Below the pieces are notes generated by a model. That model ran no database searches. It was not told where the DNA came from and was given only the letters and a program-made list of their open reading frames with translations. The translations under genes were made by a program, and so were the position numbers. From positions 57,715 to 121,714 of IMG/VR virus record IMGVR_UViG_3300037111_000040: DNA of 64,000 nucleotides; one strand, written 5' to 3'. Positions within the stretch are counted from its first letter, which is position 1, and each line of letters opens with the position of its first letter. Shown in pieces: positions 26,706 to 44,631 of the stretch. Source of the DNA: a virus.

Positions 26706-27475
26706 TGAGGCTGTTCGATCCGTTTCAGTACGTCCCTACTGACCGTCGAGGCACTCCTCCAGAGCAAGCCTTCGACAATATGGTCGAATCGTATGCGTAC
26801 AGCGTGCAGGGAAAGAGGGGTGATGGGCGTCCTCCGCTCCGAATGGGGGTTTCGGCTATTCCAGTCGAAGACGCTAGGCGTCTGTTCGTCCATTACGTTT
26901 CGTACTGGGAGGGATTCTATCGCAACGTGAGCCAAGCTCTGAACGATCACATGTCGATCTGCACGAGCCCGCCTCCGATCTTCGCGGAAATGAGAAAGGG
27001 CGATATGCGTAGCCTGTTCTCTCAAGGATACGTGGTGAACGCGGATCGCCGGAGCGGGAAGACACAAGCACTCTTCGACGAGGCCGACGAGGTTTCACGG
27101 GCAACATCCAGCAGGATTGCCATCGTAGCACCGCGCAAAGATTACATCATGGCCGAAGCAGTGAAGAGACGCTTGGAGCACGCGACGCCGGGACAATTCA
27201 ACAGGCTGGAGTTCATTGGTGAGGATGAACTACATAAGCTGGATGGGCTGAGTCGAGATGTGATGGTGGACGAATGGTGGCATCTTTCCGAACGGACGCG
27301 TGAAACACTCGCGGACAGATTCAACATCATGGCGGCGGTTGGGACATTGCCGCATGGCGCGCGGATACCAATCACATCTCGCGCACTGCGGGACGAAGAC
27401 GGCTACTACGGCAGGAAGCCGGACACCTACAACCCGTTAGCGATGGCACGGGTCGAAAGAGAGGATAGGTACTAA
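26702..27475 (+). CDS. Hypothetical protein with P-loop-like motif
   Basis: 'RRSGKT' Walker A-like and 'VMVDE' Walker B-like. Confidence 0.5.
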   Translation: MMRLFDPFQYVPTDRRGTPPEQAFDNMVESYAYSVQGKRGDGRPPLRMGVSAIPVEDARRLFVHYVSYWEGFYRNVSQALNDHMSICTSPPPIFAEMRKGDMRSLFSQGYVVNADRRSGKTQALFDEADEVSRATSSRIAIVAPRKDYIMAEAVKRRLEHATPGQFNRLEFIGEDELHKLDGLSRDVMVDEWWHLSERTRETLADRFNIMAAVGTLPHGARIPITSRALRDEDGYYGRKPDTYNPLAMARVEREDRY

Positions 27476-27624
27476 ATGACATGCAGCAAGTAGAGGATCA
27501 AGAGCAGGACCAAGATGGTGCCGATTCCAATGCCAGCGCCGCCGCCCGGACCCCACTGTGTATTACCCCAGTAGCCGCCGCCGAAACCGAAAATCAACAC
27601 CAACACGATAACGAGGATAAGCAT
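27472..27624 (-). CDS. Small Gly-rich membrane protein (DUF3309-like)
   Basis: Read by hand: MLILVIVLVLIFGFGGGYWGNTQWGPGGGAGIGIGTILVLLLILYLLHVI; GGAGG RBS. Confidence 0.7.
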   Translation of the reverse strand: MLILVIVLVLIFGFGGGYWGNTQWGPGGGAGIGIGTILVLLLILYLLHVI

Positions 27625-27634
27625 TTCGAACCTC

Positions 27635-27808
27635 CTAGCTGAAGTTTTCTTTTATCCACGCTGTGACGCGTTCGAGAATAGTCGGATCGTGAACAATGAC
27701 TTCGACGACCGGCGCGGGGTTTTGAACAATGATTTTTGTGACCGCTGTGTTTTTCTTTGTGGCTACAGGTTTCTTGACAACGATCTTGGGCTTCTTCGTC
27801 TTTGGCAC
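27635..27808 (-). CDS. Small basic hypothetical protein
   Basis: Read by hand: GTG start after GGAGG; MPKTKKPKIVVKKPVATKK...WIKENFS. Confidence 0.5.
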   Translation of the reverse strand: MPKTKKPKIVVKKPVATKKNTAVTKIIVQNPAPVVEVIVHDPTILERVTAWIKENFS

Positions 27809-27825
27809 ATCATCCTCCTATGAGG

Positions 27826-27987
27826 TTAGTGACCGATGTGAAGCGGCAGGATTCCGTTGAACAGGATGGAGGCCACGAAGAACGCAAATGCAGCCCAACC
27901 GAGGCTCCAGCGCTGCGGAGGGTTCGGAACACCGAGCGCCGCAAGGATCGCTAAAACTAAAGCGAAAACGAGCAGGATCGTTGACAT
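27826..27987 (-). CDS. Small two-helix membrane protein
   Basis: Read by hand: MSTILLVFALVLAILAALGVPNPPQRWSLGWAAFAFFVASILF...; GAGG RBS. Confidence 0.6.
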   Translation of the reverse strand: MSTILLVFALVLAILAALGVPNPPQRWSLGWAAFAFFVASILFNGILPLHIGH

Positions 27988-28057
27988 AGTTCACCTCAAG
28001 CCGATTATATGCTAAGATTGCGATGGATGGCTGTTCACTACTGAACATTTTGAGCAC

Positions 28058-28216
28058 ATGGCGGCGCAGTGTTTCCAGAAGCCCGATTCGAATCCCCCCA
28101 TCTGCGGGGTTCACAACGTTCGGCTTGTTCCAAGTGATGTGCCTTTCGATGGGAAGAAGATCGCCTGTCTGCGTTGTCCAGTGAGCCGATTCGTGGTGGA
28201 CGAAGAAAAACGTTGA
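28058..28216 (+). CDS. Small Cys-containing hypothetical protein
   Basis: Read by hand: MAAQCFQKPDSNPPICGVH...CLRCPVS... Confidence 0.4.
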   Translation: MAAQCFQKPDSNPPICGVHNVRLVPSDVPFDGKKIACLRCPVSRFVVDEEKR

Positions 28217-28241
28217 CAACCCACCAATTCCATGGAATGAT
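28213..28241 (+). promoter_or_regulatory. Sigma70-like promoter of tRNA array 1
   Basis: TTGACA 28213-28218, 17-nt spacer, AATGAT (weak -10). Confidence 0.6.
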
Positions 28242-28250
28242 GGTTTCGCT

Positions 28251-28319
28251 ATGAAGACAGTGTGCCTCAGTTCGCTCTCCTCGTATAGCTCATTACTGAG
28301 CGGTGGCGGGGGTTCGTGA
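28251..28319 (+). CDS. Attenuator leader peptide 1 (MKTVCLSSLSSYSSLLSGGGGS)
   Basis: Codons 5-17 are all Cys/Leu/Ser/Tyr, the amino acids of the downstream tRNAs. Confidence 0.8.
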   Translation: MKTVCLSSLSSYSSLLSGGGGS

Positions 28320-28347
28320 ACTGAGTCCAAAGTGGAATTCAGTCAGC

Positions 28348-28373
28348 GGCCTCCGAGAAATCGGGGGCTTTTT
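28348..28373 (+). terminator. Attenuator terminator upstream of tRNA array 1
   Basis: GGCCTCCGA-GAAA-TCGGGGGCT-TTTT; 5' arm can alternatively pair with CGGGGG at 28307-28312. Confidence 0.8.
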
Positions 28374-28380
28374 AGTTTGT

Positions 28381-28457
28381 GCCCGTGTACGCCAAATGGC
28401 AGAGCGCGACTTCTTAAAAAGGTCGGGATGGGGTTTCGAGTACCCCTGCGGGCACCA
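28381..28457 (+). tRNA. tRNA-Leu(TAA)
   Basis: GACTT-CT TAA AA-AGGTC arm, CCA end, short variable loop. Confidence 0.8.
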
Positions 28458-28458
28458 T

Positions 28459-28534
28459 GGATCGGTGGCGAAGTGTTAAACGCGGCAAGCTGCAACCTTG
28501 CTAATCGCTGGTTAAAATCCGGCCCGGTCCTCCA
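28459..28534 (+). tRNA. tRNA-Cys(GCA)
   Basis: GCAAG-CT GCA AC-CTTGC, U73, CCA. Confidence 0.85.
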
Positions 28535-28542
28535 AGTTTCAC

Positions 28543-28619
28543 GCGCGAGTAGGCAAACAGGCAAAGCCGCCAGATCGAGGGTCTGGTGTTTGGGGATTCG
28601 ATTTCCCCCTCGCGCACCA
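28543..28619 (+). tRNA. tRNA-Leu(GAG)
   Basis: CCAGA-TC GAG GG-TCTGG, CCA, short variable loop. Confidence 0.8.
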
Positions 28620-28620
28620 C

Positions 28621-28700
28621 GGGCAGGTACGCAAATTTGGCAAAGCGGCAGTCTTCAGACGGCTGTGATTTTGTGGATTCGAATTCCACTCTGCCCACCA
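28621..28700 (+). tRNA. tRNA-Leu(CAG)
   Basis: CAGTC-TT CAG AC-GGCTG, CCA. Confidence 0.8.
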
Positions 28701-28734
28701 AAGATTTGAACCATGATGGTATAATTGAACCATC

Positions 28735-29475
28735 ATGAAGTACACAAAGGAAATTCTCGAACAGGCCGTGAAAGAAAGTTTTTCAATGGCAGACGTATTG
28801 AGAAAATGCGGAGCACCAAATCTGGCTGGTGGAACATCTCACCATGTTTCGAAGAGGATTAAGGAATATGGGATCAGCACAAGCCACTTCATCGGAAAGC
28901 GTTGGCATTTAGGAAAGCCCAGTTTGAATCGAAGGGAAGCCGATTCATATTTGGTTTACCATGCAGACCTGAAAAGGCAGAGAGCAAAGGTGCTTGTGCG
29001 TTCGCTGCTCGACATTGGACGGCCATATAAGTGTTATGTTTGTGGGCTTCGCGAGTGGCGTGGAAAGAAACTGATTCTTGAGATAGAACACAAGGATGGA
29101 AACTTCCAAAACGATGTAGAGGAAAACCTAGAGTTTATTTGCCCCAATTGTCATTCCCAAACTCTTACATTTTCTCGCAGAAAGGATTCGAAGCAATTCC
29201 TCCCACCTAAGCTCAGGCCAAAGAGGCAAGGGAGAGAGGTCAGGCACCCGTCTTCGGACGGTTACTGGAGAACAAGGGACAAGCCGCGTTTGAGAAAAGT
29301 GGACCGACCGAGCCCTGTAGAATTGCAATCCTTATTGCAAACGTTGCCGATGATAAAGATTGGTGAAAAATTCGGAGTCTCTGACAACGCTGTTAGGAAG
29401 TGGATTCGGCGATATGGCATGGAGATGCCCAAGGTTTTCGGCAGGAGTCGTGGCAATAAGGATGTGCGCGTGTAG
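28735..29475 (+). CDS. HNH endonuclease inserted in tRNA array 1
   Basis: 'CYVCG...LEIEHKDGNFQND..ENLEFICPNCH' plus C-terminal HTH. Confidence 0.85.
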   Translation: MKYTKEILEQAVKESFSMADVLRKCGAPNLAGGTSHHVSKRIKEYGISTSHFIGKRWHLGKPSLNRREADSYLVYHADLKRQRAKVLVRSLLDIGRPYKCYVCGLREWRGKKLILEIEHKDGNFQNDVEENLEFICPNCHSQTLTFSRRKDSKQFLPPKLRPKRQGREVRHPSSDGYWRTRDKPRLRKVDRPSPVELQSLLQTLPMIKIGEKFGVSDNAVRKWIRRYGMEMPKVFGRSRGNKDVRV

Positions 29476-29551
29476 CAAAACGGAAAAGCGCCGGTTTTAG
29501 GCACCGGAGGGGTAACACCCATTGCGAGTTCGAGTCTCGCCACGCGCACCA
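29466..29551 (+). tRNA. tRNA-Leu(TAG)
   Basis: CCGGT-TT TAG GC-ACCGG, long variable arm, CCA. Confidence 0.85.
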
Positions 29552-29556
29552 AGTTT

Positions 29557-29634
29557 GCGGATGTGAAGGGAAACGGAATACCTCTGAAGCTCAAACCTTC
29601 AGGCTTATCGGTTCGAGGCCGATCATCCGCACCA
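29557..29634 (+). tRNA. tRNA-Leu(CAA)
   Basis: TGAAG-CT CAA AC-CTTCA, CCA. Confidence 0.8.
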
Positions 29635-29642
29635 AGTTTTAC

Positions 29643-29728
29643 GGAGCGCGGGCAGGATGGTAATGCAACGGCTTGCTAAGCCGCACAACCGCGAGGTTGA
29701 CAGTGTTCGATTCACTGGCGCTCCGCCA
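29643..29728 (+). tRNA. tRNA-Ser(GCT)
   Basis: CGGC-TT GCT AA-GCCG, long variable arm, G73-CCA. Confidence 0.9.
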
Positions 29729-29737
29729 TATTTTTAC

Positions 29738-29824
29738 GGAAGGGTGAGCGGAACGGTATCGCCCCCGGCTGGAAACCGGGTCACGTGAAAGCGTGTGCAG
29801 GTTCGACTCCTGTCCCTTCCGCCA
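29738..29824 (+). tRNA. tRNA-Ser(GGA)
   Basis: CCCGG-CT GGA AA-CCGGG, long variable arm, G73-CCA. Confidence 0.9.
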
Positions 29825-29829
29825 GTTTT

Positions 29830-29917
29830 GGAAGCGTTGGGCATTTGGCAGGCCCACCCCGTTCGAAGCGGGACACACCTTCGGGTGTTGAGCGTTCGAC
29901 TCGCTCCGCTTCCGCCA
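29830..29917 (+). tRNA. tRNA-Ser(CGA)
   Basis: CCCG-TT CGA AG-CGGG, long variable arm, G73-CCA. Confidence 0.9.
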
Positions 29918-29923
29918 AGTTTT

Positions 29924-30013
29924 GGATGGTTGGCAGAGTCTGGTTGATCGCGCTGGCCTTGAGTACCAGTAGACCGAAGGGTCTCGGGGGTTCGAATCCC
30001 TCACCATCCGCCA
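29924..30013 (+). tRNA. tRNA-Ser(TGA)
   Basis: CTGG..CT TGA GT..CCAG, long variable arm, G73-CCA. Confidence 0.85.
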
Positions 30014-30117
30014 GTTTGTAAGGGGGAGATTGACAGGTCGTGCAACAACGGTGAAGCAGTACCAGACTCCCCCTTTGGCGGCATCATGAGGCCGTCCTGA
30101 ACGGAAGTTTACCACGT

Positions 30118-30208
30118 GCGTTGGCTGGAGAGACGGTGGACTCTACCAGACTGTAAATCTGGATCATCTTCGATGACGCTGCAGGTTCAAATCCTGCCCA
30201 ACGCACCA
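30118..30208 (+). tRNA. tRNA-Tyr(GTA)
   Basis: CCAGA-CT GTA AA-TCTGG, long variable arm, CCA. Confidence 0.9.
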
Positions 30209-30233
30209 GAATTTCTGCGCTATACTCTGGCAC

Positions 30234-30617
30234 ATGCGAACGTATCGGTTTCAGACGACGTGGTCCCCGATGGACGATGACGATCTCCAGAATAACTTCG
30301 TGAGAATGAGGAAGAAATACTGGATAAAGCGTGGCCTTTGGATTCCAGAGAACGTGAAAACAGTTTTCCGGCACATACGTGACACAACTGTGTGGCAGAA
30401 CCATCCGTGTGGCCAACTTGATACTCTTCGAAGAGGCTACAAGATAGTTGTCTCTCCACCATTGGCGTTCATCTACTGTGTTGCGCATATTACCCTCCTG
30501 CATGAAATGGCGCACCTTTATCGAATTGCGAACTTCAACGATCACAGTCACGGAGATGGGTTCAAGAAGGAGATCGACCGCCTCTATGCCGCAGATGCAT
30601 TTAGAAAGCTAATTTGA
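30234..30617 (+). CDS. SprT-like zincin metallopeptidase
   Basis: 'TLLHEMAH...HSHGDGFKKE'; TATACT just upstream. Confidence 0.7.
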   Translation: MRTYRFQTTWSPMDDDDLQNNFVRMRKKYWIKRGLWIPENVKTVFRHIRDTTVWQNHPCGQLDTLRRGYKIVVSPPLAFIYCVAHITLLHEMAHLYRIANFNDHSHGDGFKKEIDRLYAADAFRKLI

Positions 30618-30677
30618 TTTATGCTACACTCCTGTCATTCCGTGGCAACACGGAAATACTTACGCAGGAGAAAATCA

Positions 30678-31163
30678 ATGAACCCCATCAGCTTCCGTAA
30701 CTCGAAGATCGTTTACTATGGCCCCCACACATGCGAAAATTGCGGCGTTTTCATCGTCAAGATGGGAACAGAGTGGGGCGGAAACGCGTTCACCAACCCA
30801 GAAGGTCCGATCTACCCAAACACAGAGTGGTTCCCACACGTTTGCGATCAGCAGTTAGTTCGCCAGCGCAAGGGCATGTCTGCGGCCAGCCGGGTCAGAG
30901 ATGATTTCCCACTTGCACATGCGATCATGCTCAACAACGTCGGTCATGTGATTCTCGGGGAACCATGCAACCCACAACATAAGCACGCCCTTGTTGTGAG
31001 TGAAAATAAGCACTACTATGACACGGAAGATGCGGCATGGGTTGGTGCTTTGAATCGGATTCTCAATGACTGGCCGACGTCGCACATCGATCTGAGTATG
31101 TACGGGGTCCACACTCGATTGACAGATGATCTGGCTACCCTGCCACAGTGCCCGTCAGAGTAA
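30678..31163 (+). CDS. Hypothetical protein
   Basis: AGGAG RBS before MNPISF; CxxC motif. Confidence 0.55.
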   Translation: MNPISFRNSKIVYYGPHTCENCGVFIVKMGTEWGGNAFTNPEGPIYPNTEWFPHVCDQQLVRQRKGMSAASRVRDDFPLAHAIMLNNVGHVILGEPCNPQHKHALVVSENKHYYDTEDAAWVGALNRILNDWPTSHIDLSMYGVHTRLTDDLATLPQCPSE

Positions 31164-31166
31164 TTC

Positions 31167-31195
31167 TTGCACGCGCGCAGGTTCCGTGGTACTGT
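31167..31195 (+). promoter_or_regulatory. Sigma70-like promoter of the Met/Asp/Glu tRNA cluster
   Basis: TTGCAC-17 nt-TACTGT, 6 nt before the first tRNA. Confidence 0.6.
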
Positions 31196-31201
31196 AAATA
31201 G

Positions 31202-31278
31202 CGCGTGGTGGAGAAGCGGTCTATCTCGCCAGCCTCATAAGCTGGAGATCGAGGGTTCGAATCCCTCCCTCGCAACCA
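31202..31278 (+). tRNA. tRNA-Met(CAT), initiator-like
   Basis: CCAGC-CT CAT AA-GCTGG, C1:A72 mismatch, CCA. Confidence 0.85.
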
Positions 31279-31284
31279 TTTTTT

Positions 31285-31359
31285 GCGGGCGTATCCTAAC
31301 GGTCAGGTACTGCACTGTCTATGCAGTTCAAGCGGGTTCAACTCCCGTCGCTCGCGCCA
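31285..31359 (+). tRNA. tRNA-Asp(GTC)
   Basis: CTGCA-CT GTC TA-TGCAG, G73-CCA. Confidence 0.85.
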
Positions 31360-31363
31360 TCTT

Positions 31364-31441
31364 GTCCTGTTCGTCTAGTCTGGCCAAGGACGTGACCCTC
31401 TCAAGGTCAAAACGGCGGTTCAAATCCGCTACGGGACGCCA
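31364..31441 (+). tRNA. tRNA-Glu(CTC)
   Basis: TGACC-CT CTC AA-GGTCA, CCA. Confidence 0.9.
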
Positions 31442-31447
31442 AGCTGT

Positions 31448-31527
31448 GGGGTAGTAGAAGGTGTCTGGAATCTTTCACCTGACTTTCACTCAGGAGTTCG
31501 CGGGTTCGAATCCCGTCTGCCCCACCA
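31448..31527 (+). tRNA. tRNA-Glu(TTC)
   Basis: CCTGA-CT TTC AC-TCAGG, CCA. Confidence 0.85.
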
Positions 31528-31530
31528 TAT

Positions 31531-32088
31531 ATGAACGGTGACTCCTCAATTTGCAACAAATGTGGTAAGTCTGAGCCAGAGGTCACATTTGCGCTGCGCC
31601 TCGTAGGCGGGAGACAGTATCCGAAATATATTTGTCGAAGCTGTGATACTAAACGTAAACAAATTTGGCGGCGGTCGCGTGGAAGAACAGAAACGATAAG
31701 GTTGTCAGCGATGATTCGCCAAAGGCGCGAAAGAACAGATCGAGAGCAGATACCGCGTGTGATAGTCGTTGACTGTCGGCGATCAGATAAGAAAAAAGGA
31801 TTTGTTTGTGACCTCACGATTGAGTTCGTGAAAGAATCCATAAAAGATGGTTGCTCTTATTGTGGGGAGATAAGAATACGCGTCGGCTTAGATCGCATCG
31901 ACAATGCGTTGGGCCACTCTCAGAATAACGTCGTAGCGTGCTGTGGGCGCTGTAATTATCTCCGGAGAGATATGCCCTATGCGGCATGGATGATGCTGGT
32001 TCCACAGGTGAGAAAAATCCGAGAATCTGGGGCTTTTGGAGACTGGGATGGGTTCGGCAGATATCGAAAGGGAAAAAATAATCTGTAA
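31531..32088 (+). CDS. HNH-like endonuclease
   Basis: 'CSYCG...GLDRIDNALGHSQNNVVACCGRCN'. Confidence 0.8.
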   Translation: MNGDSSICNKCGKSEPEVTFALRLVGGRQYPKYICRSCDTKRKQIWRRSRGRTETIRLSAMIRQRRERTDREQIPRVIVVDCRRSDKKKGFVCDLTIEFVKESIKDGCSYCGEIRIRVGLDRIDNALGHSQNNVVACCGRCNYLRRDMPYAAWMMLVPQVRKIRESGAFGDWDGFGRYRKGKNNL

Positions 32089-32130
32089 AACCTCTTGACA
32101 AATTCTGCGCTTTCCTTCACTATGCTGAAT

Positions 32131-32583
32131 ATGACGTAGATCGATTCCAAGACGTACTTTTACCTCTTCGTTCGGCAAGACCTCCCCATCGCTGCACAGA
32201 TCGTGCAGACGAACCACGCGACATTTGATATGGCTTACACGCTCACCCAGAGCGCCGATCCTTCTACGCCTTCCATCGTGCTCATAGGCGTTCCCGACAA
32301 AAAAGCGCTTCACAAGGTAATCCAGAAGCTCAAGCTGAATCGCATCGAGTTCTCGGAGTTCCACGAGAGCGATGACGATCTGGGACTCACTGCGGTCGCG
32401 ACGATTCCTCTCGACGAGGATCAGCGCGCGGTGCTCCAGAACTACAAGCTTTGGAACGAAAACAATTTGACATACGCGCCTAGCTCAGTGGTCAGAGCGC
32501 CGTTGCAGTCTGACGGAGGTCCGAGGTTCGAATCCTTGGGCGCGTACCAACGGGCGGATAGCTCGACTATGCAGGAGGTGTGA
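32131..32583 (+). CDS. PTH2-like peptidyl-tRNA hydrolase with in-frame TAG at codon 3
   Basis: ATG ACG TAG ATC GAT...; frame continues 'YFYLFVRQDLPIAAQIVQTNHA...IVLIGV...FHESD...LTAVA...YKLW'; TTGACA at 32095. Confidence 0.7.
32474..32549 (+). tRNA. tRNA-like element, anticodon AGT (Thr), inside the PTH2-like ORF
   Basis: 76 nt; ACGCGCC/GGCGCGT acceptor, TAGCTCAGTGG D arm, GGTTCGAATCC T arm, CCA; atypical loop GC AGT CT. Confidence 0.7.
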
Positions 32584-32878
32584 ATCCTCCGCCGCCCGGA
32601 ACGTAGTTCTTTGTGTTGAGGTCGGGAACGTCTTTAAGGTCAACCGAGACGAACCGTTCTTCGAACCGCGTGTCGAACAACGTCAGGCTGAACTTGTAGG
32701 TGGACTTTTTGTCTTCCCGGAGCTTCTTGATGTAGGTGTTGAAGCCGCCGATGGTGTCGTCGACACAACTTCCCATTGAGCCAGATTTGTCGAGAACAAA
32801 GTTAATCAGAACGCTTCCGCGATTTTCTTTGCCCTTTGGCTTTGATTCTTTTTTGGTTTTCTTTGTGGACTTGGCCAT
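32567..32878 (-). pseudogene. Truncated vWA-domain protein
   Basis: 'FVLDKSGSM...DTIGGFN...SLTLFD...YVPGGG' stops where the conserved T and second half of the vWA fold should follow. Confidence 0.6.
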
Positions 32879-33122
32879 GGATTTCTCCTCGCGAGATCGT
32901 CGCGGCTGTGGTTGAAATGTTTTCTGGGACCGTGTACGTCATAGTCGCGCTGACCCCGAGAGATTCAGTGATACTCCTGCCCGGTTCACGGCGGCGATTG
33001 TAAACGTCATTGAGGTAGGACGGCGACACGCCCAATGTCTGGGCAAAGTCCTTCTGGCTTTTCTCGCCCTGAAGCGTCTTCATGATTTCGAGGAGGCCAT
33101 CGATGTTCGTCACCGTGTGCAT
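32802..33122 (-). CDS. Helix-turn-helix regulator
   Basis: 'SQKDFAQTLGVSPSYLNDVYNRRREPG'. Confidence 0.65.
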   Translation of the reverse strand: MHTVTNIDGLLEIMKTLQGEKSQKDFAQTLGVSPSYLNDVYNRRREPGRSITESLGVSATMTYTVPENISTTAATISRGEIHGQVHKENQKRIKAKGQRKSRKRSD

Positions 33123-33468
33123 AAATTCGAGAATACGCGGATTTGCGTATTTGTCAAGAAGGACACCGCAGATGAAGAATTTATTGACTACCGGCCCGCG
33201 AGGCGCTACCGTTCTGGTATGGCAAGTACCGCCTTTCAGCCGATCATCGACCTTGTCAAGGGCTGGTCTGACAAGTTGCAGGGCGCTGAGGATTTCATCA
33301 ATAAGCTTCCGGTTCCCGGAAAATCCTCCACCATGAAAACCAGCAGGGGCAAGCCCCCCCTCGCGACCTCGTGGTACTACTACGGCAAGCAACAGCCGCC
33401 GCGCCCCGGCGAGCAGAAGGCCGTGGCCCGCAAGCGCATCCCAAAAAAGTGATAAACCGATGAAGTGA

Positions 33469-34182
33469 TTAAAGGTACTTTAGATTACATTCATCGCAAT
33501 GCCATGTGGTTGATGGGCTTTTGCAGGCGACACACAGCCCTTTCATCCGAATGGCGCGAGTTCGCTCGCTTGTTCGTTTGGCGTTAGCTTCGCGACAGAG
33601 ATCGCATCTACATCTGTGATAGGTATAGGTCGTGGTGACACCATGTATTGGCTTTGGTTTTACTCGTGGAGGCAAGGATGCCCGCGAGAGAGCATCACAA
33701 GAGAAGCCAAGCAATCCGGCTATTTGCCTCACCGTTTTCCCGTCATTTCGCAGCGATTCTATTTCAAGGATGTTGGCTCGAATCTTCTCTGAATTAGATT
33801 GACGAGCGGAAGATGAACCGACAATCTGGCGCACATATTCTCTTGTAAAACCGTATTTATTCCCAATTTTTTGCAGTGTCCAACCATCCCTACGGAGGAC
33901 TTTCATTTCCTCTCTGCGCGGATCGGCAGGTTTGGGTGGTATGGAGGCCCCAAGATCGTAGAATCCTGCCAACTCTCTGTTTAATCCCGGCCCATTATCA
34001 ACGTGCCACTTGCTGTGACAAAATAAGCAAAGCCAACGCACATCTAGTGGTCTTGCATAATCGTCGTGGTGGGCGACAAGCCGTCGCTGTGCCCCACATT
34101 CTTCGCATAAGAGCGCGATTGTAATGCTTCCACGCTCAACCGCTGCTTTGACGAGTAGGTGAACGCGGGCCATTTTTTTCAA
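33469..34182 (-). CDS. Zn-finger/HNH-like plus HTH DNA-binding protein
   Basis: 'CEECG...AHHDDYARPLDVRWLCLFCH', 'TLQKIGNKYGFTREYVRQI'. Confidence 0.65.
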   Translation of the reverse strand: MKKMARVHLLVKAAVERGSITIALLCEECGAQRRLVAHHDDYARPLDVRWLCLFCHSKWHVDNGPGLNRELAGFYDLGASIPPKPADPRREEMKVLRRDGWTLQKIGNKYGFTREYVRQIVGSSSARQSNSEKIRANILEIESLRNDGKTVRQIAGLLGFSCDALSRASLPPRVKPKPIHGVTTTYTYHRCRCDLCREANAKRTSERTRAIRMKGLCVACKSPSTTWHCDECNLKYL

Positions 34183-34189
34183 AAACCTC

Positions 34190-34218
34190 TTGACAGTTTT
34201 CCTGATTGATTATATCGT
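34190..34218 (+). promoter_or_regulatory. Sigma70-like promoter of tRNA array 2
   Basis: TTGACA-17 nt-TATCGT. Confidence 0.7.
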
Positions 34219-34225
34219 GGAAAAC

Positions 34226-34297
34226 GTGAGAACCCGATTCCATAACGCAGCGACACAGCCGACGCAACCAGCCGGTAATAGCGGCGGTGCGGACTAG
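34226..34297 (+). CDS. Attenuator leader peptide 2 (MRTRFHNAATQPTQPAGNSGGAD)
   Basis: GTG 7 nt after -10; codons match the 12 downstream anticodons. Confidence 0.8.
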   Translation: MRTRFHNAATQPTQPAGNSGGAD

Positions 34298-34339
34298 GGG
34301 TCTCAGACAGATTTTTTCCTAACACAGATGGAAAAACTT

Positions 34340-34380
34340 GAGACCCCCAGAACCGAAAGGAACTGGGGGTTCTCGTTTGT
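34340..34380 (+). terminator. Attenuator terminator upstream of tRNA array 2
   Basis: GAGACCCCCAG...CTGGGGGTTCTC-GTTTGT; competing 9-bp helix GGGGTCTCA(34297-34305)/TGAGACCCC(34339-34347). Confidence 0.8.
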
Positions 34381-34388
34381 GGGGATGT

Positions 34389-34463
34389 TCAAGGGTAGCT
34401 CAATGGTAGAGCCCACGGCTGTTAACCGTGTCGTTGTGGGTCCGACTCCCACCCCTTGAGCCA
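34389..34463 (+). tRNA. tRNA-Asn(GTT)
   Basis: CACGG-CT GTT AA-CCGTG, CCA. Confidence 0.9.
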
Positions 34464-34473
34464 GTTTAGAAGT

Positions 34474-34549
34474 TGGCTCTTCGTTCAATGGTTGAGGACC
34501 TTCGCCTCTGGAGCGAATGATCTGGGTTCGAGTCCCGGAGAGCCAGCCA
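34474..34549 (+). tRNA. tRNA-Gln(CTG)
   Basis: TTCGC-CT CTG GA-GCGAA, CCA. Confidence 0.9.
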
Positions 34550-34561
34550 AGTTTGAGTTGT

Positions 34562-34635
34562 TCCCGGTTCGTTCAGTGGCAGGACGTGGGCCTTTGGAAC
34601 CCAACACGGGAGTTCGATTCTCCCACCGGGTGCCA
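34562..34635 (+). tRNA. tRNA-Gln(TTG)
   Basis: TGGG..CT TTG GA..CCCA, CCA. Confidence 0.85.
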
Positions 34636-34636
34636 C

Positions 34637-34710
34637 GCGGGGTTGATGTAGCGGTAGCATCGAAGTGTGCCACACTTTGCGCATCGGTTCGAACCCGATA
34701 CCCCGCTCCA
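34637..34710 (+). tRNA. tRNA-Gly(GCC)
   Basis: GAAGT-GT GCC AC-ACTTT, U73-CCA. Confidence 0.85.
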
Positions 34711-34789
34711 CTTTGGAGGAAGAAGAATGAAGATCGATTTGAACGCCGACATGCAGCATGTTTTCGCACGGTTGGCGAAAGGATTTCGA

Positions 34790-34864
34790 GCACCGTTAGT
34801 TGAGTCGGCACAACACGACCCTCGTAACGTCGAAGCCCCGGTTCGATTCCGGGACGGTGCTCCA
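34790..34864 (+). tRNA. tRNA-Thr(CGT)
   Basis: CGAC..CT CGT AA..GTCG, CCA. Confidence 0.85.
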
Positions 34865-34897
34865 CAGATTGACGAGAGGTAGAAGAAAGGGGATTCC

Positions 34898-35443
34898 ATG
34901 GCACTCATACGGAGAGCGGTACTACAACTTAACGCGTCGTATGAGCCGCTGAGAATCGTCAGCGCGCGAAAGGCGCTCACGCTCATAACCAAGGGCGTTG
35001 CCGTGGTGGAGGTGCCAACCAGCATCCAAGTCCACAAGGGAATCTACCTTCCTTCCGTCATCCGTTTGCGGCACTACAGGAACGTCCCGCACCGGATGCA
35101 GCAGGTTTCGAGGAAGAACATTTTCATTCGCGACGGTTTCAGGTGCATGTACTGCGGCGCGAAGAAGAACAACGGGGCAGAGCTTGAACTGGAGCACGTG
35201 ATCCCGAGAAGCAGAGGTGGTAAGCAGTCATGGGACAACCTTGTTGCTGCCTGTTCCCCGTGCAATAGACGTAAGAACAACCGGACGCCGGAAGAGGCTG
35301 GAATGAAGTTGATCCATAGGCCGCTGCCCGCGAATATCTTTACAAGCCGCTTCATTTTGAAACAGCTTGGCAGAGAAGTTGAGGAATGGGGAAAGTTCCT
35401 TTTTTCTGATTCCGAAGGCGAAACGAGGTTACAATTTAGGTAA
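34898..35443 (+). CDS. HNH endonuclease (McrA/HNH_5-like)
   Basis: 'VLQLNASYEPL...RDGFRCMYCG...EHVIPRSRGG..SWDNLVAACSPCN..KNNRTPEEAGM'. Confidence 0.9.
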   Translation: MALIRRAVLQLNASYEPLRIVSARKALTLITKGVAVVEVPTSIQVHKGIYLPSVIRLRHYRNVPHRMQQVSRKNIFIRDGFRCMYCGAKKNNGAELELEHVIPRSRGGKQSWDNLVAACSPCNRRKNNRTPEEAGMKLIHRPLPANIFTSRFILKQLGREVEEWGKFLFSDSEGETRLQFR

Positions 35444-35446
35444 AAG

Positions 35447-36169
35447 ATGCGCAAACTCGTCGGCAAAATTTACTTAATTCGTAATCTCGCGAACGGCAAG
35501 GGGTACGTCGGCCAGACCACGAAACAAACTGTGTGGATAAGGTTCAACCAGCACAAATACGAGGTCAAGCGCGGAAGCAATCTGCCCATACATAGGGCGA
35601 TGAGAAAGTGGGGAGTTGAAAACTTCACAGTTATCGAAGTCGCCTCGTGTGATCCACTTTTGCTCGACGATCTCGAAAAGCACTTCATCAAATTCTACAA
35701 AACCTACATCACAAGCGGTCGCGGCTATAACAGGACGGCAGGAGGGTACAGCGGATTCAACAGAGACGGAATCAGGATTCTTACAGAAAAGGGAAGCTCG
35801 ACACTTTCAGATGTCCATAAGGGAAACTCTTATGCCAAGGGGCACAAAGTATCGGAAGAAGGAAGAGCGAGAATGGCCGAGGCTGCTAGAAATAGAGGAC
35901 CGGTAACGCGCTCGCCAGAGTTGAGGGCCAGAATCTCGGCCACCTTGAAAGGACACCCTGTTGCAGAGGAATCGAGAGCGAAGATGTCAGCGTCGCACAA
36001 GGGGGTAAAAGTCGGCTACCGGAAACGCAGGCCGATGTCGGATGAGCACAAGGCGAAGATTTCCGCGAGTATGCGTGGAAAGAGGAAAACTCCGGAGTCC
36101 ATAGCCAAGAGACTTGCGACTTGTGCTTTGCTTAACACGGGTGACACAAGATACCAGTTTGTTAACTAA
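35447..36169 (+). CDS. GIY-YIG homing endonuclease with NUMOD3-like repeats
   Basis: 'GKIYLIRNLANGKGYVGQT...GYNRTAGG'; 'SEEGRARMA', 'EESRAKMS', 'SDEHKAKIS'. Confidence 0.9.
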   Translation: MRKLVGKIYLIRNLANGKGYVGQTTKQTVWIRFNQHKYEVKRGSNLPIHRAMRKWGVENFTVIEVASCDPLLLDDLEKHFIKFYKTYITSGRGYNRTAGGYSGFNRDGIRILTEKGSSTLSDVHKGNSYAKGHKVSEEGRARMAEAARNRGPVTRSPELRARISATLKGHPVAEESRAKMSASHKGVKVGYRKRRPMSDEHKAKISASMRGKRKTPESIAKRLATCALLNTGDTRYQFVN

Positions 36170-36213
36170 CATAAATGTTCGTTATCGTCTCCAAATTTTG
36201 CTATACTCGGGAG

Positions 36214-36939
36214 ATGAAAAACGAAGAAAGGCGAAAAGCTGCTCGGAGGCGGTGGTACTACAGGAACAGGAAATCCAAGAAGGTGTTGAAGTCGCGAATT
36301 CCTGACGTACCGCTGCTTTCTGTTGAGGAACGTAAGACTATTAGCAGGGCGAATGCTGTGGTTGCGCTGGCGAAAGCTCATGCTAAAGCAAAAATCAAAT
36401 CGGATCAGATACAACGTAAGAGAGAAGAGCGTCGATGCGTAATTTGCGGCGGTCCTGTTCTCGTTAAGAATCTGAAAGCAAAATCGTGCTCGGTGAGATG
36501 CGCGAAGATCGCCAGACGAAAAAGAAGAGAGAATTGGGAAAAGGCTTGCGCGTACTGCGGTTCCACATGTTCTGGTCAGAACAAGTATTGCGACGACTGC
36601 AACAAAAGCCAAATCTACAAGATGGCTCAGTCTACTGAAGATGTAAGCGATTCAAAGGCTGTCAAGCGTCTGGTGCTTCGGAGAAGAGGACACAGATGCG
36701 AAGGATGCGGTTTAGATCAGTGGATGGGAAAAGCCATCCCGCTTGAACTTCACCATGTGGACGGGGATTCAGAGAATAACAAAGATGAGAACCTGCAACT
36801 TCTCTGTCCTAATTGCCACGCTTTGACTCCAACGTTTCGTAATCGAAACAAAAGGAAGGCGAGCGAAAGAAGAAGAAAGATAAGAAAGACGAGAGAGTTT
36901 GCCGAAGTAGCTCAAGAGGAAGTAGCGGCGGTTTTGTGA
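36214..36939 (+). CDS. HNH endonuclease inserted in tRNA array 2
   Basis: 'CEGCG...LELHHVDGDSENNKDENLQLLCPNCH'. Confidence 0.85.
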   Translation: MKNEERRKAARRRWYYRNRKSKKVLKSRIPDVPLLSVEERKTISRANAVVALAKAHAKAKIKSDQIQRKREERRCVICGGPVLVKNLKAKSCSVRCAKIARRKRRENWEKACAYCGSTCSGQNKYCDDCNKSQIYKMAQSTEDVSDSKAVKRLVLRRRGHRCEGCGLDQWMGKAIPLELHHVDGDSENNKDENLQLLCPNCHALTPTFRNRNKRKASERRRKIRKTREFAEVAQEEVAAVL

Positions 36940-36976
36940 ACCGCTGATGGGATTTCGAGTATCCCCTTCGGCCCCA
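36901..36976 (+). tRNA. tRNA-Thr(TGT)
   Basis: GCGGT-TT TGT GA-ACCGC, CCA. Confidence 0.8.
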
Positions 36977-37059
36977 AGCTCACTGGGACACGCGGAATCT
37001 CCCGCTTACGGGCGGGAGGGTGCTACCAAGCTATAACGTGTCCCGGTAGCGCGATTCAT

Positions 37060-37138
37060 GGCGGTGTTGGCAGAGCGGTCTATTGCGCGTGTCTGTGGCA
37101 CACGTATTACATCGGTTCGAATCCGATACGCCGCCCCA
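37060..37138 (+). tRNA. tRNA-His(GTG)
   Basis: CGTGT-CT GTG GC-ACACG, G-1:C73, CCA. Confidence 0.9.
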
Positions 37139-37147
37139 AAGTTTTAC

Positions 37148-37223
37148 GGGCCTATAGCTCATTTAGGAGAGCGCCGCACTTGCAATGCGGAGGCGGTCGG
37201 GGCGGAGCCGACTAGGTCCACCA
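37148..37223 (+). tRNA. tRNA-Ala(TGC)
   Basis: CCGCA-CT TGC AA-TGCGG, G3:U70, CCA. Confidence 0.9.
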
Positions 37224-37553
37224 AGTTTGACTGGTGCCTCACCTGTAACGACGTAAGGGTGAAGGCGTCACGGGTCGCACGTCGCAAGGTAGAGGCCCGC
37301 TAAGTTTTTAGGAGAAATATGCGTCAATTCATAAAGCGATCCGAGCGCGGTTTTTCTCAGCGAAGACATGAGGGAGATTTGCGTAGGAGAAAGCAGTTCG
37401 CAAGCAAGATCGCGGATTGTTTCTTTGCTGAGAGTCCTTTCCAGCGGATGCTCATGAGGTGTGGACGCGCTCGGAAGCTGATGCAGGCATATCGCGCGAA
37501 GAAGATGATTCGCAGGCCGAGCAACTTTCGGCAGGATGTTTGGCAAGAGTTTT

Positions 37554-37629
37554 GTCGATTGAGCTAGTGCAGTCATAGCGTCCGCCTGAAGAGCGGAAGA
37601 ACTCGGGGCAGCACCGGGAGTCGACACCA
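37554..37629 (+). tRNA. tRNA-Phe(GAA)
   Basis: TCCGC-CT GAA GA-GCGGA, CCA; atypical T loop. Confidence 0.8.
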
Positions 37630-37630
37630 T

Positions 37631-37707
37631 CGGGGAGGGGCGCGGTCAGGTAGCGCTTCGGTCTCGGGTACCGAAGGTCATGGGTTCGAATCCCATCTCC
37701 CCGACCA
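37631..37707 (+). tRNA. tRNA-Pro(CGG)
   Basis: TCGGT-CT CGG GT-ACCGA, CCA. Confidence 0.9.
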
Positions 37708-37720
37708 TTTTGGAAGTCAC

Positions 37721-37797
37721 ACGGGTGTAGCGAAGTCTGGAAACGCACCTGCTTTGGGAGCAGGGGATCGGGGGTTCAAATCCCTCCACCCGTACCA
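37721..37797 (+). tRNA. tRNA-Pro(TGG)
   Basis: CCTGC-TT TGG GA-GCAGG, CCA. Confidence 0.9.
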
Positions 37798-37807
37798 TTT
37801 TGAATGA

Positions 37808-37884
37808 GGGCCTATAGCGTAGTTGGATGACGCGGCAGACTACGAATCTGTTATACGGGGGTTCGAATCCCTCTAGGCCCTCCA
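37808..37884 (+). tRNA. tRNA-Arg(ACG)
   Basis: GCAGA-CT ACG AA-TCTGT, CCA. Confidence 0.9.
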
Positions 37885-37903
37885 TAAAAAGCGCAGAATT
37901 TGC

Positions 37904-37932
37904 TTGACGCGTTTTTGGAACCGTTGTAAGGT
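37904..37932 (+). promoter_or_regulatory. Sigma70-like promoter of the ncRNA array/Ro60-like operon
   Basis: TTGACG-17 nt-TAAGGT. Confidence 0.6.
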
Positions 37933-37963
37933 TAGAGACGTTGCGTTTTTGAGATTGAGTTTT

Positions 37964-38826: not shown

Positions 38827-38849
38827 AAGTTCCTTCCGGGAGGGGAACC

Positions 38850-39958: not shown

Positions 39959-39971
39959 GAGAAATAGGAAA

Positions 39972-41480: not shown

Positions 41481-41557
41481 TGCCGAAGAAGATTCCAATG
41501 AAGAGGAAGAACATCTTTGTCAACCCCGGTATGGAGAAGACGGAAAGGAGGAAGCCT

Positions 41558-41857: not shown

Positions 41858-41886
41858 CATTTTCTTGGTTGCCACACTTGGCAGTG

Positions 41887-41914
41887 GGCACGGTGCGAGC
41901 CGTGCCCTTTTTTT
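41887..41914 (+). terminator. Rho-independent terminator
   Basis: GGCACGG-TGCGAG-CCGTGCC followed by a T run, between convergent genes. Confidence 0.8.
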
Positions 41915-41916
41915 GT

Positions 41917-43414: not shown

Positions 43415-43481
43415 CGACTCTCCGACCTAAAGGACGGAGATTCTAGAGCCCTCGCGGGCTCCATTGGCTAAAACAGCCTGC

Positions 43482-44606: not shown

Positions 44607-44631
44607 GATGTCTCCACTATACACTTGGTCT

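What the first reader, a model, noticed from the sequence alone, without database searches (positions are those of the whole stretch)
28251..28373. Leader 1: thirteen consecutive Cys/Leu/Ser/Tyr codons ahead of a Leu5-Ser4-Cys-Tyr array
Codons 5-17 are TGC CTC AGT TCG CTC TCC TCG TAT AGC TCA TTA CTG AGC. Downstream anticodons are Leu TAA/GAG/CAG/TAG/CAA, Ser GCT/GGA/CGA/TGA, Cys GCA and Tyr GTA. All four Ser isoacceptors are sampled by separate synonymous codons, which points to isoacceptor-level rather than amino-acid-level sensing. CGGGGG (28307-28312), just before the TGA, can sequester the terminator 5' arm CCTCCG.
Basis: partly seen in the sequence, partly recalled or inferred. Interest (0 to 1): 0.88.

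Follow-up and report, generated by a model that had tools for sequence, protein, structure and literature searches.

The report
Leader-peptide attenuator gating phage tRNA genes
A peat-soil phage places a tiny test gene, written in leucine, serine, cysteine and tyrosine codons and wired to a switchable transcription stop, in front of the tRNA genes that read those codons, so it probably makes these tRNAs only when ribosomes run short of them.

Summary
At 28213-28380 there is a sigma-70-type promoter, then a 22-codon ORF starting 9 nt after the -10 box. Codons 5-17 of that ORF are all Cys/Leu/Ser/Tyr. A strong intrinsic terminator follows, 11 nt before an array of exactly those tRNAs (Leu x5, Cys, Ser x4, Tyr).

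The 13-codon run is the longest in all six frames of the window. It was reached in 0 of 200 window shuffles and 0 of 20000 ORF shuffles.

Folding gives the classical attenuator layout:
- Region 1 lies inside the codon run.
- Region 2 holds CGGGGG at the end of the ORF.
- Region 3 is the terminator 5' arm.
- Region 4 is the terminator 3' arm.

Three homologous leaders in uncultured relatives keep the promoter, frame, Cys/Leu/Ser/Tyr composition and switch, although codon order and stem sequences differ. Two further cassettes in the window match their own arrays (16 of 22 and 17 of 28 codons).

Translation and regulation are not shown experimentally. The "isoacceptor-level" argument is weak for this leader alone (P about 0.5). 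An HNH gene with its own promoter may uncouple the distal half of the array.

My searches found no published account of this control for tRNA genes. This scan has noted the same kind of cassette before in other phages.

The parts
28213..28241 (+). Promoter: -35 TTGACA (28213-28218), 17-nt spacer, extended -10 TGgAATGAT (28233-28241)
   Evidence: Consensus scan, 10 of 12 matches with TG before the second hexamer. GTTGACA and a TGn-extended -10 are also present in homologues L006 and L008.
28251..28319 (+). Leader ORF, 22 codons plus TGA: MKTVCLSSLSSYSSLLSGGGGS. It starts 9 nt after the -10 box with no Shine-Dalgarno motif, so it is probably leaderless or nearly so.
   Evidence: Frame 0 holds 14 of 21 Cys/Leu/Ser/Tyr codons against 4 of 22 in each other frame. 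Homologous ORFs are present in L006, L008 and L009.
28263..28301 (+). Sensor run: 13 consecutive Cys/Leu/Ser/Tyr codons (codons 5-17)
   Evidence: Longest such run in six frames of the window; 0 of 200 shuffles reach it; 0 of 20000 ORF shuffles.
28266..28284 (+). Region 1: pairs with region 2 in untranslated RNA (protector or pause helix)
   Evidence: Minimum-energy fold of the free leader: 28266-28275 pairs with 28316-28325 and 28278-28284 with 28306-28312. The fold has z = -3.61 against 200 shuffles. Duplex energy is -28.8 kcal/mol.
28306..28325 (+). Region 2: last ORF codons (GGC GGG GGT TCG), the TGA stop and 6 nt beyond. It contains CGGGGG (28307-28312), the 5' strand of the antiterminator.
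   Evidence: It is covered by a ribosome whose A site is at codon 16 or later.
28307..28355 (+). Antiterminator hairpin. The basal helix 28307-28313 with 28349-28355 sits on an inner hairpin (28320-28343). It consumes 7 of the 9 bases of the terminator 5' arm.
   Evidence: Minimum-energy fold of the transcript up to the terminator loop, both free and with a ribosome on codons 2-14. Region 2 with region 3 gives -23.4 kcal/mol.
28348..28373 (+). Intrinsic terminator: stem 28348-28356 with 28361-28369, loop GAAA, T tract 28369-28373, then AGTTTG
   Evidence: hairpin -16.2 kcal/mol. A terminator is present at the same place, with different stem sequences, in all three homologues.
28381..30208 (+). 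Regulated tRNA array: Leu(taa), Cys(gca), Leu(gag), Leu(cag), [HNH ORF 28735-29475], Leu(tag), Leu(caa), Ser(gct), Ser(gga), Ser(cga), Ser(tga), Tyr(gta)
   Evidence: ARAGORN. Rfam tRNA model hits for 8 of the 11. The HNH ORF matches phrog_10822 at E = 3e-45.

Best explanation
This is a ribosome-mediated (leader-peptide) transcription attenuator that gates a block of phage tRNA genes. The proposed sequence of events is as follows.

1. Transcription starts at the promoter at 28213-28241, at or within a few bases of the ATG.
2. A ribosome translates the 22-codon leader while RNA polymerase moves towards the terminator.
3. If Cys, Leu, Ser and Tyr codons are decoded quickly, the ribosome reaches the end of the ORF and covers region 2 (CGGGGG...). 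The terminator 5' arm stays free, the 9-bp terminator forms, and transcription stops 11 nt before the first tRNA.
4. If the ribosome stalls in codons 5-15 for lack of usable (intact, charged) tRNA, it masks region 1 and leaves region 2 free. Region 2 then pairs with the terminator 5' arm and polymerase reads through into the Leu/Cys/Ser/Tyr tRNA genes.
5. The new tRNAs relieve the stall and shut the gate again, giving negative feedback on tRNA supply.
6. Without any ribosome, region 1 pairs with region 2 and the terminator forms.

Shown here: the sequence elements, the codon-to-tRNA match, the alternative folds, and their conservation in relatives. Inferred: the transcription start, translation of the ORF, termination efficiency, and the response to the tRNA pool. 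The natural trigger is also inferred; it could be host tRNA cleavage by defence nucleases, loss of host tRNA during infection, or a mismatch between phage codon use and host tRNAs.
For: 1. Anatomy. Promoter, ORF, terminator and tRNA array lie in the right order and at the right spacing.

2. Codon match. 14 of 21 leader codons are read by the array behind it (background 0.20, P = 5e-6). The three leaders of the window match their own arrays at 14/21, 16/22 and 17/28, against 1-7 codons for any other array.

3. Switch. The free RNA folds as region 1 with 2 plus the terminator (z = -3.61). The nascent RNA forms the antiterminator while a ribosome is on codons 2-14 and loses it from codon 16 onward.

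4. Conservation. Homologous leaders occur before tRNA-Leu(taa) in L006, L008 and L009, and the tRNAs seen behind two of them are Leu(taa)-Cys-Leu... (L009's contig ends after Leu(taa)). They have 12/19, 16/27 and 16/27 Cys/Leu/Ser/Tyr codons in frame 0, against 6-8 in the other frames, although the codon order is rearranged. Shuffles of each ORF reaching the observed count were 88, 9 and 1 of 20000.

5. Covariation. Terminator stems differ between homologues (CCTCCGA/TCGGGGG; CCCACTC/GAGTGGG; CCCGCC/GGCGGG). In each, the ORF-end arm is complementary to that sequence's own terminator 5' arm or its flank (CGGGGGT; GAGGGTTGG; GAGTG...GTCGGTA; GCG.GTCGGTG).

6. Start signals. Where the promoter is missing (in L009 a tRNA lies directly upstream), a GAGG motif sits 6 nt before the GTG start.

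7. Leader 3 also has a homologue in the 105-kb relative, with a terminator whose stem has changed in a compensating way.

8. It is not a known RNA family. Rfam gives no match in 28000-28380 at E up to 1.
Against: - No experimental data bear on the transcription start, translation, termination or regulation.
- The ORF has no Shine-Dalgarno motif, so translation depends on leaderless or near-leaderless initiation in an unknown host.
- With the whole leader transcribed, the terminator is in the minimum-energy fold at every modelled ribosome position. Read-through therefore needs kinetic trapping.
- In L008 and L009 the ORF runs 6-7 sense codons past the antiterminator arm. In the model, the arm is exposed again when the ribosome sits at the stop.
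- An HNH gene with a perfect extended -10 (TGgTATAAT 28717-28725) lies inside the array. It could drive the distal seven tRNAs independently of the attenuator.
- An upstream + strand ORF ends inside the -35 box, so read-in transcription is possible.
- Only three homologues were found, two of them on contigs of 1.3 and 2.1 kb.
Confidence: 0.7

Rival explanations
1. It is a general translation-stress gate. The ORF is translated and the switch works, but it reports any slowing of translation (ribosome shortage, host shut-off, antibiotics). The codon identity is secondary.
For: The fold logic responds to any stall in the first 15 codons. The Anabaena accessory tRNA array is induced by general translational stress, though through a repressor (passages of PMC8421152; abstract of PMC10272220).
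Against: A general gate would not need three leaders with three different codon sets, each matching its own array. Nor would it need to keep the Cys/Leu/Ser/Tyr composition through rearranged codon order in four homologues.
Confidence: 0.1
2. It is an untranslated structured leader. The RNA between promoter and array would be a constitutive partial terminator or a processing or pause element. The ORF-like composition would be a by-product of the pyrimidine-rich strand needed to pair with the G-rich arms.
For: The leader is strongly structured (z = -3.61). Region 1 is the complement of G-rich region 2, which favours CUC/UCC/UCG words. There is no Shine-Dalgarno motif. The terminator is always the minimum-energy fold of the full transcript.
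Against: - The enrichment is frame-specific in all four homologues: 12-16 against 4-8 codons.
- It includes AGT/AGC Ser, TTA/TTG Leu, TAT and TGC/TGT codons, which are not pyrimidine words.
- Phe and Pro codons, which the same composition would favour, are absent from the run.
- All four homologous leaders have an open frame with a start and a stop next to or ahead of the arm.
- L009 has a GAGG motif before its start.
Confidence: 0.12
3. It is a functional micropeptide. The 22-residue Ser/Leu-rich product would itself act in trans, and the terminator would simply end its small transcript.
For: An open frame with a conserved N-terminal MKT in 2 of the 4 sequences (window and L006).
Against: Residue order, length (19-27 residues after the start) and C-terminus are not conserved; only composition is. 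The transcript's terminator lies 11 nt from a co-oriented tRNA array in the window and in all three homologues.
Confidence: 0.03
4. It is a chance ORF next to an ordinary promoter and terminator.
For: Short ORFs are abundant: 385 ORFs of at least 20 aa in 21.5 kb.
Against: Run statistics, the leader-by-array matrix and conservation in relatives.
Confidence: 0.03

Closest known systems
Multivalent leader-peptide transcription attenuators of enterobacterial amino-acid operons (ilvGMEDA leader with Ile/Leu/Val codons; thr leader with Thr/Ile; also trpL, hisL, leuL, pheL). Described from established knowledge; not re-read here.
   Same: A promoter-proximal short ORF with a run of regulatory codons for several amino acids. 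Four-region RNA with 1:2, 2:3 (antiterminator) and 3:4 (intrinsic terminator) alternatives. Ribosome position decides the outcome.
   Different: The regulated genes are tRNAs, not biosynthetic enzymes, so the signal and the product are the same class of molecule. The start appears leaderless. The element is phage-borne. There is no sequence relationship: no Rfam leader family matches.
pheST attenuator (pheM leader) of E. coli, controlling phenylalanyl-tRNA synthetase (recalled)
   Same: Leader-peptide attenuation applied to a gene of the translation apparatus, read out through tRNA charging.
   Different: It controls a synthetase for one amino acid, not tRNA genes. E. coli's own tRNA-Phe genes pheU and pheV have a promoter directly before the tRNA, with no leader ORF or terminator (read by eye).
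T-box riboswitches
   Same: A terminator/antiterminator decision that reports tRNA status upstream of translation-related genes.
   Different: A T-box binds an uncharged tRNA directly, with one specifier codon and a conserved T-box sequence, and needs no translation. Here there is a translated run of many codons and no T-box match in Rfam.
Accessory long tRNA array (trn operon) of Anabaena sp. PCC 7120
   Same: An extra tRNA array kept silent and induced when translation is impaired (PMC8421152 passages).
   Different: Control is at the promoter, through direct repeats bound by the repressor TrcR (PMC10272220 abstract). The words 'attenuat', 'leader peptide' and 'terminator' occur 0 times in PMC8421152.
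Codon-matched leader cassettes before tRNA blocks noted earlier by this scan in other phages (notes e1-4045671, e1-3450868 and others; unpublished AI notes)
   Same: The same layout: promoter, mini-ORF spelling the downstream tRNA set, terminator. I partly checked one case, Caulobacter phage phiCbK. Three annotated terminators sit directly before tRNA blocks. The ORF before Phe-Val-Ile-Ile-Val-Gln-Gln reads ...QFVRQIQVVRNI....
   Different: The sequences, hosts and tRNA sets are unrelated. In phiCbK the match is uneven: the cassette before Glu-Asp has only 3 of 19 matching residues (my count).

Membership tests
Leader-peptide (ribosome-mediated) transcription attenuator | Short ORF between promoter and regulated genes, with signals for translation | tested here: inconclusive
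   A 22-codon ORF is present and its frame is conserved in three homologues. There is no Shine-Dalgarno motif; the start lies 9 nt after the -10 box, which would give a leaderless mRNA. Translation was not measured.
Leader-peptide (ribosome-mediated) transcription attenuator | Cluster of regulatory codons whose decoding reports the regulated pathway | tested here: met
   13 consecutive Cys/Leu/Ser/Tyr codons; 14 of 21 codons are read by the 11 tRNAs downstream.
Leader-peptide (ribosome-mediated) transcription attenuator | Intrinsic terminator between the ORF and the regulated genes | tested here: met
   9-bp stem, GAAA loop, T5 tract at 28348-28373, 11 nt before the first tRNA. Present in all three homologues.
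Leader-peptide (ribosome-mediated) transcription attenuator | Mutually exclusive antiterminator whose 5' strand is covered by a ribosome finishing the ORF and is free when the ribosome stalls in the codon run | tested here: met
   Constrained folds of the nascent transcript in the window and three homologues. This is a prediction only. In L008 and L009 the arm is re-exposed when the ribosome is at the stop.
Leader-peptide (ribosome-mediated) transcription attenuator | Region 1:2 pairing that gives termination when the leader is not translated | tested here: met
   Minimum-energy and centroid folds of the free leader. L006 shows the same pairing.
Leader-peptide (ribosome-mediated) transcription attenuator | Read-through responds to supply of the cognate charged tRNA | not testable with these tools
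   This needs reporter, Term-seq or in vitro assays.
Classical amino-acid operon attenuators (trpL, hisL, ilvL and similar sequence families in Rfam) | Regulated genes are amino-acid biosynthesis genes, and the leader matches a curated family | tested here: not met
   The genes downstream are tRNAs. No Rfam family matches 28000-28380 at the gathering threshold or at E up to 1.
T-box riboswitch | Conserved T-box sequence and specifier loop (Rfam model) | tested here: not met
   No T-box match among the 42 matches listed for 28000-47700 at E up to 1.

The most novel reading that the evidence does not exclude
Phages of unrelated lineages carry a modular, codon-addressed tRNA-pool sensor. Each block of phage tRNA genes sits behind its own leader peptide written in the codons that block reads, so each block is transcribed on demand when exactly those tRNAs become limiting. 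That could happen after host anticodon-nuclease defence or host tRNA decay. The result would be self-limiting, per-block tRNA homeostasis, and a class of attenuator whose input and output are the same molecules.
Probability: 0.55. Interest if true: 0.88.

Novelty: new variant of a known kind. Interest (0 to 1): 0.8.

Why it matters
How phages control their tRNA genes is largely unknown, and so is why they carry large tRNA sets. A leader-peptide attenuator in front of tRNA genes would show three things:
- tRNA supply can be regulated by demand at the level of individual codon sets.
- The trp/his attenuation principle extends to a new class of target.
- Phage tRNA arrays could be linked directly to tRNA depletion, including tRNA-cleaving host defences.

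The cassettes are short (about 170 nt) and self-contained. They are therefore directly testable, and they could serve as natural reporters of the availability of defined tRNAs in living cells.

Tried and rejected
Relatives in cultured phages. A blastn search of 27000-34500 against 50,697 phage records found only isolated tRNA matches covering at most 2% of the query.

Protein anchors.
- The 257-aa upstream protein gave no relative in viral contigs.
- The 180-aa protein inside the array gave 6 loci. Only 1 of them (L006) carries the arrays; L001-L005 have 0 or 1 tRNA.

DNA patterns.
- The terminator/tRNA junction pattern found only L006's record.
- The tRNA-Leu 5' pattern found 3 metagenome loci. 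Two have a leader; in L010 another tRNA lies directly upstream.
- The same pattern found 2 viral loci. One is L006's record. The other, L011, is unrelated, with a suppressor-type tRNA.
- It found 0 in genome contigs.
- A pattern shared by L008 and L009 found 0 in viral contigs.
- No homologue of Leader 2 was found in the relative by blastn-short.

RNA evidence.
- Four metatranscriptome runs, kept as contigs, were laid on 27600-47590. Contigs cannot show starts, ends or levels, and DNA may be present in such libraries.
- None of the 32 listed pieces covers 28251-28380; 182 further pieces were not shown. This says nothing either way.
- One piece (X22 record 18, 34268-34496) runs from Leader 2 across its terminator into the tRNAs.

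Full-length thermodynamic switching for Leader 1. The terminator is present at every modelled ribosome position. I therefore rely on nascent-transcript folds.

My recollection that E. coli pheU or pheV might have a Phe-rich leader was checked and rejected.

The 170-aa ORF on the minus strand (27818-28330) that overlaps the leader has no PHROG match. It has no counterpart in L006, and indels of 2 and 3 nt break it. I treat it as spurious.

Literature. Seven full-text searches were run. I saw their listings and abstract openings, passages of PMC3082878 and PMC8421152, and the abstract and outline of PMC10272220. None describes a leader-peptide attenuator upstream of tRNA genes. Subscription-journal papers and supplementary files were not searchable.

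Full report
**What is there.** The window is the right-hand 64 kb of a 121,714-bp single-contig virus record with 54.5% G+C. ARAGORN finds 36 tRNA genes, all on the + strand, in blocks separated by small ORFs. A relaxed ARAGORN run adds Ile(tat), Lys(ttt) and Thr(ggt). One of the intervening ORFs (28735-29475) matches an HNH endonuclease family at E = 3e-45.

The finding lies directly before the first block. The elements, in order, are:
- a promoter, TTGACA at 28213, a 17-nt spacer, and TGgAATGAT ending at 28241;
- an ATG at 28251, 9 nt after the -10 box, with no Shine-Dalgarno motif;
- a 22-codon ORF, MKTVCLSSLSSYSSLLSGGGGS, with its stop at 28317-28319;
- an intrinsic terminator at 28348-28373 (9 pairs, GAAA loop, T5);
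- tRNA-Leu(taa) starting at 28381.

The block then runs Cys, Leu(gag), Leu(cag), the HNH gene, Leu(tag), Leu(caa), Ser(gct), Ser(gga), Ser(cga), Ser(tga) and Tyr.

**Is it more than chance?** Codons 5-17 all encode Cys, Leu, Ser or Tyr.
- Among 7 runs of at least 8 such codons in all six frames of the window, this is the longest (13; the next is 10). It is reached in 0 of 200 shuffles of the window.
- It is reached in 0 of 20000 shuffles of the ORF body.
- With standard wobble rules, 14 of the 21 sense codons are read by the 11 tRNAs behind the terminator. The genome background is 0.20, giving P = 5e-6.

- Leader 2 lies at 34226-34297, before Asn, Gln x2, Gly, Thr x2, His, Ala, Pro x2 and Arg.
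- Leader 3 lies at 45192-45281, before Trp, Met, Ile(tat), Lys x2, Arg x3, Val, Thr, Ile and Gly.

Each leader matches its own array (14/21, 16/22, 17/28 codons). Matches to any other array are only 1-7 codons. This three-by-three pattern is the strongest internal evidence that the codon content is addressed to the genes downstream.

**Structure.** The free 130-nt leader is unusually stable: -52.8 kcal/mol, z = -3.61, and 0 of 200 shuffles fold as well. It folds as two parts:
- a long helix between the codon run (region 1, 28266-28284) and the end of the ORF (region 2, 28306-28325);
- the terminator (regions 3 and 4).

I then folded the transcript only as far as the terminator loop, which is the state at the moment of decision. 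Region 2 pairs with the terminator 5' arm: CGGGGGT at 28307-28313 with GCCTCCG at 28349-28355. This helix is stacked on an inner hairpin.

This antiterminator is the predicted fold while a 29-nt ribosome footprint is centred on codons 2-14. It is weakened at codon 15 and gone from codon 16 to the stop. That is the layout of the classical four-region attenuator.

One caveat applies. With the full leader present, the terminator is the minimum-energy fold at every ribosome position. The antiterminator must therefore act kinetically, as I recall is the case for trp. For Leaders 2 and 3, even the full-length minimum-energy fold switches between antiterminator and terminator with ribosome position.

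**Relatives.** No cultured phage resembles this genome. Three uncultured homologues of Leader 1 were found.
- A 105-kb viral contig (locus L006, record G001) was reached through a 180-aa protein that lies inside the array, at 60% identity.
- Two short metagenome contigs (L008, L009) were reached through a pattern from the first tRNA.

All three homologues place a short ORF and a terminator directly before tRNA-Leu(taa). The tRNAs seen behind L006 and L008 continue Cys-Leu...; L009's contig ends after Leu(taa).

| Source | Leader peptide |
|---|---|
| window | MKTVCLSSLSSYSSLLSGGGGS |
| L006 | MKTLSLSSCLYLSSSEGWVD |
| L008 | MNFVCLSSLSYLSSLSLSASRYARWRGI |
| L009 | MKSTLSSSRLYLSSLDCLSACRCVPDQP |

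- Residue order, length and C-termini differ, but the composition is kept. The three homologues have 12/19, 16/27 and 16/27 Cys/Leu/Ser/Tyr codons in frame, against 6-8 in the other two frames.
- Shuffles of each ORF reached the observed counts in 88, 9 and 1 of 20000 trials.
- The terminator stems have different sequences. In each homologue the arm at the ORF end is complementary to that homologue's own terminator 5' arm or its flank, and the ribosome-dependent folds behave alike.
- L006 and L008 keep GTTGACA and a TGn-extended -10, placed 6-7 nt before the start.
- L009 has a tRNA directly upstream instead of a promoter, and a GAGG motif 6 nt before its GTG. This is what one expects if the ORF must be translated.
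- Leader 3 also has a homologue in G001 (MLTITKSARTMTGTKRVIWGIVREGCGS). Its terminator stem has changed in a compensating way, and an ORF with an HNH-type motif (read by eye) has been inserted between that terminator and tRNA-Trp.

**What weakens the case.**
- Nothing here shows transcription start, translation or conditional termination.
Eight Ser codons drawn at the genome's usage cover all four classes half of the time (P = 0.50), and only 3 of 5 Leu classes are used.
- Support for isoacceptor addressing comes from elsewhere. L008 and L009 use five different Leu codons for five Leu residues (P = 0.005 each, but the two are related). Leaders 2 and 3 hold CAG and CAA, CCG and CCA, ACA and ACG, AGA, AGG and CGG, AAA and AAG, and ATA and ATT, each facing a separate tRNA.
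- In L008 and L009 the ORF continues 6-7 sense codons beyond the arm, so the arm is free again when the ribosome is at the stop.
- In the window, the HNH gene inside the array has a perfect extended -10 (TGgTATAAT, 28717-28725) 9 nt before its ATG. It could express the distal seven tRNAs independently. In G001 the array is uninterrupted there, so this looks like a later insertion.

**Comparison with what is known.** The mechanism is that of leader-peptide attenuators, most like the multivalent ilv and thr leaders (established knowledge, recalled).
- It is not a member of any curated leader or T-box family. No Rfam match falls in 28000-28380 at E up to 1.
- It differs in its target, which is tRNA genes. 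E. coli's tRNA-Phe genes, which I suspected might have such a leader, do not.
- The nearest published biology I found is the silent accessory tRNA array of Anabaena, induced under translational stress. It is controlled by a repressor at the promoter (PMC8421152 passages; PMC10272220 abstract).
- Seven full-text searches gave no account of attenuation of tRNA genes.

This scan's own notebook lists the same kind of cassette in several other phages. I partly checked one, the cultured Caulobacter phage phiCbK.
- Its record annotates three terminators directly before tRNA blocks.
- The ORF before Phe-Val-Ile-Ile-Val-Gln-Gln reads MSKTYRQFVRQIQVVRNI...; by my count 9 of codons 6-17 match that block.
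- gp083, before Pro x2, Lys x2, Leu x3 and Ser x2, has 23 of 44 residues that are Ser, Leu, Pro or Lys.
- The cassette before Glu-Asp matches poorly (3 of 19).

**Occurrence.** Besides 6 runs flagged as possible sources, 9 runs under 9 study codes hold at least half of the sampled words of 28000-31200. All are labelled peat or permafrost metagenome. The host is unknown.

**Verdict.** Experimental proof is lacking. Relative to the literature I could search, it is a new variant of a known kind of control.

Noticed in passing
window 34190-34386 and 45150-45345: Two further cassettes have the same build. Leader 2 (34226-34297) has the antiterminator GGGGTCTCA/TGAGACCCC and the terminator CCCCCAG/CTGGGGG. 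Leader 3 (45192-45281) has CGAGGGT/ACCCTCG and a terminator followed by T5. In both, the full-length minimum-energy fold switches with ribosome position.
   Followed up: partly
window 28717-29475: An HNH endonuclease gene (phrog_10822, E = 3e-45) lies inside tRNA array 1. It has a perfect extended -10 (TGgTATAAT) 9 nt before its ATG, and its stop overlaps the start of tRNA-Leu(tag). It is absent at this place in the relative G001.
   Followed up: partly
window 45512-45605, 45690-45764, 46082-46156: Three tRNAs are missed by default ARAGORN and found at a relaxed threshold: Ile(tat), Lys(ttt) and Thr(ggt). Rfam supports 46082-46153 at 42.8 bits and 45691-45760 at only 23.4 bits.
   Followed up: partly
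window 28381-28700, 29557-29634: Four of the five tRNA-Leu genes are only 77-80 nt long, too short for the usual long variable arm. The same holds in the relative, at 77-79 nt.
   Followed up: no
window 37950-41480: There is a weak YrlA (Y RNA-like) match at 38190-38271 (27.9 bits, below the gathering score of 69) and a partial tRNA match at 38329-38388. These lie upstream of a 528-aa protein with a vWA-like region that matches a PHROG annotated as RNA-binding protein (E = 1e-8). Contigs from RNA libraries cover 37954-38745 and 41066-41827.
   Followed up: no
window 43482-45051: An IS200/IS605 pair lies directly upstream of Leader 3's promoter: TnpB-type OrfB_IS605 on the - strand and a Y1 transposase on the + strand.
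   Followed up: partly
L006 11361-11773: The 105-kb relative carries a tmRNA gene (tag peptide AEDNALPMAA) between its tRNA-Asp and tRNA-Glu genes. The window has none there.
   Followed up: no
window 32088-32101, 34183-34195, 46105-46115: The word AAAACCTCTTGAC(A) recurs at promoter-like sites, and AAAACCTCTTGC occurs at 46105. It may be a phage-specific promoter context.
   Followed up: no
window 31166-31201: The Met-Asp-Glu-Glu block has a promoter-like site (TTGCAC, 17 nt, TGgTACTGT) ending a few bases before tRNA-Met. It has no leader ORF or terminator, so not every block is gated (read by eye).
   Followed up: no
window 34297: Contigs of two RNA-library runs (X21, X23) lack one base at the last letter of Leader 2's stop codon, which is also the first G of its antiterminator arm. 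This is probably a strain variant.
   Followed up: no
L016 (Caulobacter phage phiCbK 47000-53000): Three annotated rho-independent terminators lie directly before tRNA blocks. Each is preceded by a TTGACA-type promoter or a small ORF. The ORF before Phe-Val-Ile-Ile-Val-Gln-Gln spells QFVRQIQVVRNI.
   Followed up: partly
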